DNA of 64,000 nt, from positions 288,001 through 352,000 of the IMG/VR virus record IMGVR_UViG_3300017700_000931; one strand, 5' to 3'. Under the pieces are notes generated by a model. The model had not been told where the DNA came from. It did not search any database and saw only the letters and a list, made by a program, of their open reading frames with translations. Shown here piece after piece: positions 2,191 through 2,671 of this stretch; the stretch's first letter is position 1; each line of letters starts with the position of its first letter. The translations under genes and the position numbers were made by a program. This DNA is from a virus. Taxonomy: Duplodnaviria; Caudoviricetes.

Positions 2191-2671
2191 AAAAATAATG
2201 ACACCCATTTCTAAGTGGAATGATTAGCAAGGCATCAAACATCCAAGCACCCTATTTAGTTATCTCTATGGTAACGTTTTAATCATCTTACAATAAACAA
2301 CATCACCTTAGCGTGATTATAACGAATGGATTTGGGCCTTTAATGTCAGTCGCACGACGTGTTATATCCTCACCACTCCAATTCCGTACCCCCTAACTCA
2401 GATATACACCTGCTGACCATTACGTTTAACAGGGTCGCCAATTTCGGCTTAATTTTCATCTGAGGATTGGTTGCATCTATTGTTTGTTACTGCTTATCTT
2501 CAGTAGTCATTATTTTTATGAGTGAGTATGACGTATGCCGTCCTTTGGATTTACCCGCAGACCAACGGTTCTCTCACCCATGTTTTTATAAAAATAGAAT
2601 CACTTTCATAATCAGGACCATTTTTATTCGGTGTGCCTCACCAACATGATTACTAATCACTATCTATTTTT
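2191..2671 (-). ncRNA. Large multi-domain structured RNA (~480 nt; GOLLD/ROOL-class candidate, identity unverified)
   Basis: Three closed domains: 9-bp helix 2590-2598/2663-2671, 8-bp helix 2519-2526/2573-2580, perfect 12-bp helix 2191-2202/2506-2517; many internal hairpins; no credible ORF; flanked by tRNA-like modules. Confidence 0.65.

What the first reader, a model, noticed from the sequence alone, without database searches (positions are those of the whole stretch)
2191..2671. Large ornate RNA candidate (GOLLD/ROOL class or new)
Seen: three separately closed domains. A perfect 12-bp helix (2191-2202/2506-2517) encloses ~320 nt containing CTCAGAT/ATCTGAG, ATAAC/GTTAT, ATGATTA/TAATCAT, ATCAC/GTGAT, TACTG/CAGTA, CCTGTT/AGCAGG and an alternative ATCCTCA/TGAGGAT pairing (possible pseudoknot or switch). 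There is also an 8-bp-closed multiloop (2519-2580) and a 9-bp-closed domain with tandem TGA internal loops (2590-2671). Known: GOLLD and ROOL are large phage-associated RNAs often found near tRNAs. I cannot confirm sequence-level membership by eye.
Basis: partly seen in the sequence, partly recalled or inferred. Interest (0 to 1): 0.75.

Follow-up and report, generated by a model that had tools for sequence, protein, structure and literature searches.

The report
Conserved small RNA in phage tRNA-like island
The stretch is not a GOLLD or ROOL RNA, but its centre holds a roughly 170-base folded RNA of an undescribed family, shared with one other distantly related giant phage and better conserved than any of their tRNAs; its function is unknown.

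Summary
The window comes from a 362.5-kb giant phage. The stretch 2191-2671 is the middle of a roughly 965-base region with no genes and raised G+C, on the minus strand, which also holds three tRNA-shaped modules.

**What checked out.** The listed helices exist. Two of them pair only on the minus strand. Folding energy is no better than shuffles on the + strand (z -1.1) and marginal on the minus strand (-2.2). Without its 12-bp closing helix, the large domain is at chance (z about -1.1).

**Known families.** GOLLD, ROOL and YrlA models find nothing in the stretch, and the genome has no Ro60 gene.

**The conserved core.** A core at 2319-2490 (minus strand) has a homologue in one other 362-kb phage:
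- One 83-base block is 89% identical; their tRNAs have a median identity of 66% and a maximum of 86%.
- Every substitution in a modelled helix keeps the pairing, including two A-U to G-C double changes. All other substitutions fall in loops.
- In the other phage the core is closed by an 11-bp stem that starts right after tRNA-Asp.

Best reading: a new small structured RNA, transcribed with tRNA-like genes and probably cut out by tRNA-processing enzymes. The two smaller domains have no supporting evidence. Earlier notes of this scan describe similar stem-closed cassettes in the tRNA arrays of other phages.

The parts
2319..2490 (-). Conserved RNA core, about 172 nt: the only part of the finding with a homologue
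   Evidence: blastn against G006 (IMGVR_UViG_3300045970_000794): window 2316-2398 is 89% identical over 83 nt (E 3e-25) and 2453-2490 is 82% identical. Alignment A3. Covariance model R1 scores 119 and 115 bits in the two phages.
2486..2490 (-). P1, 5' strand (GUAAC); pairs with 2319-2323 (GUUAU)
   Evidence: Appears in the MFE fold of each core on its own. The G.U pair here is G-C in G006, where the helix runs to 11 bp (AAAAUUGUAAC/GUUACAAUUUU) and starts just after tRNA-Asp.
2464..2469 (-). Px, 5' strand; pairs with 2379-2385 (one bulged A)
   Evidence: From RNAalifold only. A-U becomes G-C at A3 columns 31:117. A second CAAU at 2479-2482 carries the same A>G change and could pair with the same partner.
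2386..2463 (-).
   Evidence: G006 has shorter, unrelated sequence here, between conserved flanks.
2324..2378 (-). 3' arm: Py (2373-2378/2324-2329), Pz (2368-2372/2333-2336), hairpin Ph (2355-2358/2345-2348)
   Evidence: Predicted in each core sequence on its own. A-U becomes G-C at 121:173. Two G.U pairs are kept in both phages, and all cells pair. A shifted register (ACGGA..UGGA with UCCA-UUCGU) fits the substitutions equally well (my own reading of A3; partly seen).
2506..2517 (-). 5' arm of the 12-bp outer closing helix (3' arm at 2191-2202)
   Evidence: Perfect repeat. Pairing probability is 0.88 or more for 11 of the 12 pairs (0.51 for the outermost) in the ensemble. It joins the two ends of the spacer between the units at 2519-2580 and 2084-2186 (p 0.006). 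Not conserved in sequence in G006, which closes its core with a different stem.
2191..2202 (-). 3' arm of the 12-bp outer closing helix
   Evidence: As for 2506-2517. It ends 4 nt (window 2187-2190) before the tRNA-like module, which starts at 2186.
2203..2318 (-). 3' extension of the large domain, not conserved
   Evidence: No convincing alignment to G006. In the MFE of the full 327 nt it pairs with the conserved 3' block and displaces the conserved model by 8-12 kcal/mol.
2519..2580 (-). 62-nt unit closed by a 9-bp acceptor-like stem (GC 0.52)
   Evidence: z -1.77. It is preceded by ACAU and followed by A plus an A-rich trailer, like the leaders and trailers of this phage's tRNAs. No homologue found.
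2590..2671 (-). 82-nt unit closed by a perfect 9-bp A/U helix (GC 0.31)
   Evidence: z -1.91. End-pairing test p 0.14. No homologue. Not distinguishable from chance.
2697..2787 (-). Flanking tRNA-shaped module (context, outside the finding)
   Evidence: Folds into a cloverleaf unaided: z -3.13, 0 of 200 shuffles as good. Called only by relaxed ARAGORN.
2084..2186 (-). Flanking tRNA-shaped module with canonical T arm and 7-bp acceptor stem (context)
1824..2082 (-). Spacer closed by a 14-bp stem (1958-2082), then a tRNA-shaped module ending in an encoded CCA (1824-1953) (context)

Best explanation
The 481 nt are not one GOLLD/ROOL-type RNA. They are the middle of a roughly 965-nt non-coding island on the minus strand, laid out like this phage's tRNA arrays. 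Folded units lie end to end, each with paired ends, and three of them are tRNA-shaped.

Inside the large domain, a core of about 170 nt (window 2319-2490, minus strand) is a conserved structured RNA of an undescribed family.

Proposed mechanism (inferred, not shown):
- The island is transcribed as one precursor together with the tRNA-like modules.
- RNase P cuts at the 5' end of the downstream tRNA-like module, and a 3' tRNA-processing nuclease cuts after the upstream unit.
- This releases the RNA, whose paired ends (the 12-bp helix here, an 11-bp helix in the other phage) protect it from exonucleases.
- The released RNA then acts in trans, most likely by binding a protein or another RNA.

The two smaller domains (2519-2580, 2590-2671) and the 3' extension may be processing or spacer units. 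Nothing shows that they do more.
For: **Shown: the region is non-coding and sits in an RNA context.**
- No frame opens on the co-oriented strand, even with any single stop codon read through.
- No translated similarity to anything fetched.
- GC is 0.38-0.41, against 0.327 for the genome and 0.25-0.30 for plain intergenic gaps. That matches the gaps that hold tRNAs.
- The surrounding genes are on the minus strand.

**Shown: the core is conserved.**
- An 83-nt block is 89% identical in G006.
- The two genomes align over only 64.6 kb, at 69% identity.
- Their same-anticodon tRNAs have a median identity of 66% and a maximum of 86%.
- Conservation comes in two blocks around a replaced middle domain, and the flanks do not align. 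That fits selection better than a recent transfer.

**Shown: structure is kept.**
- 25 modelled pairs, with 50 of 50 cells paired.
- Two A-U to G-C double changes, one G.U to G-C change, and none broken.
- Slid controls give 24-46% paired and no compensation.
- The other 7 substitutions in the conserved blocks lie in loops.
- P1, Py and Pz appear in the MFE fold of each core on its own.
- G.U pairs fix the strand as minus.
- No codon-position bias in any frame.

**Shown: context is conserved.**
- In G006 the core follows tRNA-Asp directly, on the tRNA strand, closed by an 11-bp A...U stem, and is followed by a non-canonical tRNA-like module.
- Here it lies between an acceptor-like unit and a tRNA-like module, closed by the 12-bp stem.
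- This phage's main arrays hold similar stem-closed spacers that start right after a tRNA.
- Several other non-tRNA array units are conserved in G006.
Against: - There are only two members, so covariation rests on three pairs. With two sequences the shuffle control says nothing (120 of 500).
- Px comes from a method that rewards covariation. Its partner column could instead pair with a second CAAU.
- A shifted register for the 3' arm fits the data equally well.
- In the full 327-nt unit of this phage, the conserved model is 8-12 kcal/mol above the MFE and has zero pairing probability, because the non-conserved extension competes for the 3' block.
- The model finds the RNA in no other of 106 viral records, and in none of 151 Bacteroidota genomes.
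- The neighbouring proteins are not shared between the two phages, so no partner is suggested.
Confidence: 0.6

Rival explanations
1. One large ornate RNA of a new class. On this view the whole 481 nt, or the whole 965-nt island with its tRNA-shaped modules, folds and acts as a single molecule. It would be analogous to GOLLD, which can carry tRNAs in its linker, and might assemble into multimers.
For: - Context resembles that of GOLLD and ROOL, which are phage RNAs found near tRNA islands, with tRNAs sometimes inside the GOLLD linker (paper 10.1101/2024.12.08.627333).
- The island is continuous, has no ORF and has raised GC.
- The units abut with gaps of 1-36 nt.
- The conserved core has a GGCC palindrome in a predicted loop.
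Against: - GOLLD and ROOL models find nothing.
- Only about 170 nt are conserved in G006. The other domains and all three tRNA-like modules have no counterpart there, and G006 closes the core on its own with an 11-bp stem.
- Island z is only -1.9 and the interior of the large domain is at chance.
Confidence: 0.1
2. Mostly functionless spacer. On this view the stretch is filler, or a decayed remnant of a tRNA array. Its helices are chance products of A/T-rich sequence, and the similarity to G006 is a patch of recently exchanged DNA.
For: - Inverted-repeat density and most z-scores are at chance.
- No homologue in GenBank phages, in 104 other viral records, or in the closest RNA-ligase relatives.
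- Spacers between tRNAs are generally not conserved between relatives.
- For 2519-2580, 2590-2671 and 2203-2318 this reading cannot be excluded.
Against: - The core is more conserved than any tRNA pair of the two phages.
- Conservation is in blocks, all helix substitutions keep pairing and the rest are in loops.
- Closure by a stem that starts at the neighbouring unit's border is kept through a different stem.
- GC is raised like in the tRNA gaps.
Confidence: 0.2
3. A DNA-level or cis-acting element. On this view the conserved blocks are a protein-binding site, promoter or attenuator region. Alternatively they are a 5' leader that regulates the downstream genes (small ORFs, HNH, RNA ligase), not a free RNA.
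For: - A sigma-70-like site lies at 2818-2789 on the minus strand, just upstream of the island.
- No terminator is seen between the island and the downstream genes.
- The HNH and RNA ligase genes follow on the same strand.
Against: - G006 has the core but none of these downstream proteins nearby. There it sits inside a tRNA array.
- Compensatory changes and kept G.U pairs point to RNA pairing on one strand.
- Promoter-like sites are fewer than in shuffles (12 against 17.6). The host is probably a Bacteroidota member, for which that consensus does not apply.
Confidence: 0.08

Closest known systems
GOLLD (Rfam RF02032) and ROOL (RF03087)
   Same: Structured RNAs of unknown function encoded by phages, typically beside tRNA islands. 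GOLLD sometimes has tRNAs inside its linker (10.1101/2024.12.08.627333).
   Different: No match to either covariance model at E<=10. The conserved unit is about 170 nt, not 580-800 nt. No evidence of the multi-pseudoknot architecture or of multimers.
Bacteriophage T4 stable RNAs C and D (species 1 and 2, genes rnaC and rnaD) in the T4 tRNA gene cluster
   Same: Small non-tRNA RNAs encoded among phage tRNA genes on the tRNA strand, presumably made from the same precursors. Function still unknown.
   Different: No sequence or structure model was available to test relatedness. The host, the phage group and the size of the unit differ. Processing is not shown here.
YrlA/YrlB Y RNAs with Ro60 (Rsr) (Rfam RF02553)
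   Same: RNAs closed by a stem of their own 5' and 3' ends. They are often found in or near phage tRNA arrays, and some have tRNA-like parts.
   Different: RF02553 gives no hit in the island, only weak hits on tRNAs elsewhere. There is no TROVE/Ro60 gene in the genome. No Ro-binding helix signature was recognised.
Leader-trailer processing stems of bacterial rRNA operons, and sRNAs released from tRNA operon spacers (3'ETS-leuZ type) (established knowledge)
   Same: The ends of the unit pair across it, and the flanks are substrates for tRNA or rRNA processing nucleases. That would release a stable RNA from a polycistronic precursor.
   Different: Purely an analogy of layout. No cleavage sites were mapped, and the closing stems here are 11-12 bp and A/U-rich.

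Membership tests
GOLLD (RF02032) | Match to the family covariance model (conserved 3' domain) | tested here: not met
   No match at E<=10 in window 1500-3100 or in the whole 362.5-kb genome.
GOLLD (RF02032) | Length above about 600-800 nt with many conserved helices | tested here: not met
   Only about 170 nt are conserved in the one homologue.
GOLLD / ROOL | Phage or prophage location next to tRNA genes | tested here: met
   Giant phage. tRNA-shaped modules flank the stretch, and in G006 the core follows tRNA-Asp.
ROOL (RF03087) | Match to the family covariance model | tested here: not met
   No match at E<=10. The control genomes also gave no hit, so the search was not validated on a known ROOL.
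YrlA / Y RNA (RF02553) | Match to the covariance model | tested here: not met
   11 weak hits (18 bits or less, gathering score 69), none in the island.
YrlA / Y RNA (RF02553) | Ro60 (TROVE) gene encoded in the same genome | tested here: not met
   PF05731 finds nothing at E<=1 in six frames. The controls rang in Deinococcus and Bacteroides.
tRNA (RF00005) | Cloverleaf with an anticodon arm, recognised by ARAGORN or Infernal | tested here: not met
   No tRNA call within 2191-2671. Relaxed ARAGORN gives one poor call at 2220-2299. My scan for an acceptor stem plus T arm finds nothing convincing there.
Non-tRNA stable RNAs of phage tRNA clusters (T4 RNA C/D type) | Encoded among tRNA genes on the tRNA strand | tested here: met
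   In G006 it lies inside a tRNA array directly after tRNA-Asp. Here it lies among tRNA-shaped modules.
Non-tRNA stable RNAs of phage tRNA clusters (T4 RNA C/D type) | Accumulates as a discrete stable RNA processed from the tRNA precursor | not testable with these tools
Non-tRNA stable RNAs of phage tRNA clusters (T4 RNA C/D type) | Sequence or structure homology to T4 rnaC or rnaD | tested here: inconclusive
   blastn of 1800-2800 and of the core against 50,697 GenBank phage records found nothing. T4 should be among those records, but no structure model was available.

The most novel reading that the evidence does not exclude
The core would be the founding member of a new class of trans-acting phage RNA that travels in tRNA operons and is held under stronger constraint than the phages' own tRNAs. 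It could have two alternative pairings (the duplicated CAAU, or the ATCCTCA/TGAGGAT against CTCAGAT/ATCTGAG choice) that act as a switch. The whole island, with tRNA shapes lacking anticodons plus stem-closed RNAs, would then be an RNA-only operon aimed at the host's tRNA-processing machinery or tRNA-targeting defences.
Probability: 0.15. Interest if true: 0.8.

Novelty: new variant of a known kind. Interest (0 to 1): 0.5.

Why it matters
Giant phages carry large tRNA arrays, and the sequence between the tRNAs is usually ignored. In this pair of phages, an RNA hidden there is better conserved than any tRNA they share. This phage's arrays also hold many further folded units that tRNA finders miss, and several are likewise conserved.

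If these are real stable RNAs, phage 'tRNA islands' are mixed RNA operons with a second, uncharacterised cargo. The layout, with paired ends that start at the neighbouring tRNA's border, suggests a general way to make stable small RNAs using the host's tRNA-processing enzymes. The core gives a concrete, testable entry point: a covariance model and three invariant 16-mers.

Tried and rejected
**Known RNA families**
- Rfam at gathering score and at E<=10: no family.
- GOLLD, ROOL and YrlA by accession over the whole genome: nothing in the island. One wrong accession (RF01998, a group II intron part) was searched by mistake.
- ARAGORN, standard and relaxed: no tRNA or tmRNA in 2191-2671.
- tmRNA idea: rejected. 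Only T-arm fragments match, there is no tag frame, and no G3:U70 pair.

**Coding or pseudogene**
- Rejected.

**Mobile element**
- MITE or repeat: no second copy in the genome.

**Synteny routes**
- Relatives found through the RNA ligase (26 loci) and through the 76-aa protein (78 loci) carry no similar DNA.
- Relatives of the 62-aa upstream ORF are remote.
- Neighbours of the G006 cassette are orphans, or lead to contigs without the RNA.

**Exact-word scans**
- Five words from the finding and one from module B in IMG/VR, one in JGI metagenomes and one in GTDB genomes gave nothing or chance hits.
- Two of my words missed G006 by a single mismatch.

**Other negatives**
- An identical Logan contig adds no variation.
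- Sliding-window z-scores show nothing distinctive.
- Decayed tRNA inside the large domain: no acceptor stem plus T-arm pair.
- Functional link to the adjacent HNH and RNA ligase genes: not conserved in G006.

Full report
**Where it is.** The window is bases 288001-352000 of a 362,532-bp IMG/VR virus record with direct terminal repeats. ARAGORN finds 57 tRNAs in it, and its GC is 0.327.

The finding (2191-2671) lies in a gap with no ORFs, about 1815-2793, inside a block of minus-strand genes. Downstream on that strand are two small ORFs, an HNH gene (958-1335) and an RNA ligase (PF09414).

On the minus strand the gap also holds three tRNA-shaped modules:
- 2697-2787;
- 2084-2186;
- 1824-1953, which ends in an encoded CCA.

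Between the last two lies a spacer closed by a 14-bp stem (1958-2082). I saw these modules before opening the scan's earlier notes, which describe the same ones.

**Checking the observation.** All the listed helices exist except 'CCTGTT/AGCAGG'. That string is the minus-strand reading, with a G.U pair that is C.A on the + strand. The closure of 2519-2580 is likewise complete only on the minus strand.

Statistically the picture is weak:
- Inverted repeats of 9 bp or more are as dense as here in 34% of equal-sized windows of this genome.
- By my estimate (genome length x 400-nt span x match probability^12), about 22 perfect 12-bp repeats within 400 nt are expected genome-wide. About 30 with a long separation occur.
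- The whole stretch folds with z -1.11 on + and -2.19 on -.
- The 327-nt domain reaches z -2.7, but only -1.15 without its closing helix.
- The two small domains give z -1.8 and -1.9.

Three things do stand out:
- GC is raised (0.38 for the stretch, 0.41 for the island), as in this genome's gaps that hold tRNAs (0.37-0.45) and unlike its plain intergenic gaps (0.25-0.30).
- The structural ensemble is unusually well defined.
- Once unit borders are set by the neighbouring tRNA-like modules, the 12-bp helix joins the two ends of its spacer (p 0.006). The 14-bp helix does the same for its own spacer (p<0.002). The 9-bp one does not (p 0.14).

**Known families.**
- Rfam gives nothing at gathering score, or at E<=10, over 1500-3100 on either strand.
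- GOLLD (RF02032) and ROOL (RF03087) find nothing at E<=10 anywhere in the phage.
- YrlA (RF02553) gives only weak hits on tRNAs elsewhere.
- The genome has no TROVE/Ro60 gene.
- The stretch is not coding. No frame opens on the co-oriented strand even if one stop codon is read through. tblastx finds nothing.

**The homologue.** Most searches for relatives failed: GenBank phages, the closest RNA-ligase relatives, loci around two neighbouring proteins, and several exact words in three collections.

A search of five large records did succeed. G006 (IMGVR_UViG_3300045970_000794, 362,102 bp, direct terminal repeats) holds window 2316-2398 at 89% identity over 83 nt (E 3e-25), and 2453-2490 at 82%.

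The two phages are distant:
- Only 64.6 kb align, at 69% identity.
- Their same-anticodon tRNAs have a median identity of 66% and a maximum of 86%.
- They share no proteins around the RNA.

So the core is better conserved than any tRNA pair they share. In G006 that domain is shorter and unrelated. Outside the core nothing aligns convincingly. This block pattern argues for selection rather than recent transfer followed by neutral drift.

**Structure of the core.** Folded alone, each core sequence gives the same elements:
- a closing helix P1 (GUAAC with GUUAU);
- a 3' arm made of Py, Pz and a hairpin Ph.

RNAalifold adds a helix Px.

On alignment A3 the model has 25 pairs, and all 50 cells pair:
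- Two pairs change on both sides, A-U to G-C, one in Px and one in Py.
- One pair goes from G.U to G-C, in P1.
- None is broken.
- With the 3' partners slid by 1-3 columns, only 24-46% of cells pair and no compensation appears.

The seven other substitutions in the conserved blocks all fall in predicted loops. Two G.U pairs kept in both phages, plus the G.U in P1, fix the strand as minus. That is the tRNA strand in both genomes. No reading frame shows a third-position bias.

Caveats on the structure:
- With two sequences the shuffle control says nothing.
- Px's partner column could instead pair with a second CAAU, which carries the same A>G change.
- A shifted register of the 3' arm fits the substitutions equally well.
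- In the full 327-nt unit of this phage, the conserved model is 8-12 kcal/mol above the MFE, because the non-conserved 3' extension competes for the conserved block.

**Context and layout.** In G006 the core starts 2-3 nt after tRNA-Asp. It is closed by a perfect 11-bp stem (AAAAUUGUAAC with GUUACAAUUUU), and a large non-canonical tRNA-like module follows it.

In this phage P1 is only 5 bp. It ends 4 nt (window 2187-2190) before the tRNA-like module, which starts at 2186. Closure by a stem that starts at the neighbouring units' borders is therefore kept, but through a different stem.

The same layout recurs in this phage's main tRNA arrays. An A-run stem begins right after a tRNA, and a U-run followed by ACAU precedes the next tRNA, for example at genome 56191-56291 and 56464-56543. 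Across 32 inter-tRNA spacers of this phage and its relatives, 5 have end-to-end helices at p<=0.05, against 1.6 expected.

Those arrays also contain several tRNA-like units that ARAGORN does not call. Some non-tRNA units are conserved in G006, one of them at 90% over 58 nt. The unit 2519-2580 is preceded by ACAU and followed by an A-rich trailer, like real tRNAs here, but nothing else supports it.

**How far the family reaches.** Model R1, built on the 93-nt 3' block, scores 119 and 115 bits in the two phages. It finds nothing at E<=0.1 in 104 other viral records (one 15.5-bit hit at E 0.65 in G009), and nothing in 151 Bacteroidota genomes.

**Interpretation.**
- Shown: a non-coding, minus-strand core of about 170 nt, conserved with its structure kept, in a tRNA or tRNA-like context in two distant giant phages.
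- Inferred: transcription together with the neighbouring modules, release by tRNA-processing nucleases, protection by the closing stem, and a trans-acting role.

Earlier notes of this scan report stem-closed cassettes in the tRNA arrays of other phages. I treated those as leads, and reproduced the layout only in this genome and in G006.

Noticed in passing
L136:294-399 (genome 24793-24898, minus strand; outside the window): Match to Bacteroidales small SRP RNA (RF04183): 52.1 bits against a gathering score of 55.2, E 1e-8. A phage-encoded SRP-like RNA, which also hints that the host is a Bacteroidota member.
   Followed up: no
Genome 13-58 kb tRNA arrays (outside the window), e.g. 14591-14675, 31088-31277, 57558-57651, 57829-57929: Spacers between called tRNAs contain further tRNA-shaped units, with T arm and acceptor stem, that ARAGORN does not call. 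They also contain small stem-closed units (56191-56291, 56464-56543, 30386-30442).
   Followed up: partly
Genome 57008-57065, 57563-57649, 10463-10569, 54747-54841 (outside the window): Other non-tRNA array units are conserved in G006 at 75-90% identity. One is 90% identical over 58 nt, as well kept as the core studied here.
   Followed up: no
window 10207-10513: A stretch of about 270-300 nt matches four separate places in G006 at 72-80% identity. It is a repeated element or a multi-copy gene.
   Followed up: no
window 11909-11944: DUF805b RNA (RF02914), above its gathering score (41.7 bits).
   Followed up: no
L026:10007-12142: In one relative the RNA ligase gene is a single 711-aa ORF, with an in-frame insertion of about 360 aa between the two halves that match. 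It may be an intein. Rfam finds no intron there.
   Followed up: partly
L140:10605-10679 (G003): A relative carries a tRNA with anticodon CUA, which ARAGORN calls 'tRNA-Pyl'. That is a possible amber suppressor.
   Followed up: no
window 1591-1815: The 74-aa GTG-start ORF next to the island has no Pfam or PHROG match. It is not called as a gene on an identical Logan contig, so the non-coding island may extend to about 1590.
   Followed up: no
L154:about 1300-1487 (G006, minus strand): Directly after the G006 cassette lies a unit of about 190 nt with a canonical T arm and a 6-of-7 acceptor stem. It is a very large tRNA-shaped module, and two probably spurious ORFs overlap it.
   Followed up: no
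Genome-wide: Several tRNAs are unusually long for their type (Thr 88 nt, Met 87, Cys 87, Asn 89, Ile 85), which suggests extra arms. One is called with an undetermined anticodon (25456-25530).
   Followed up: no
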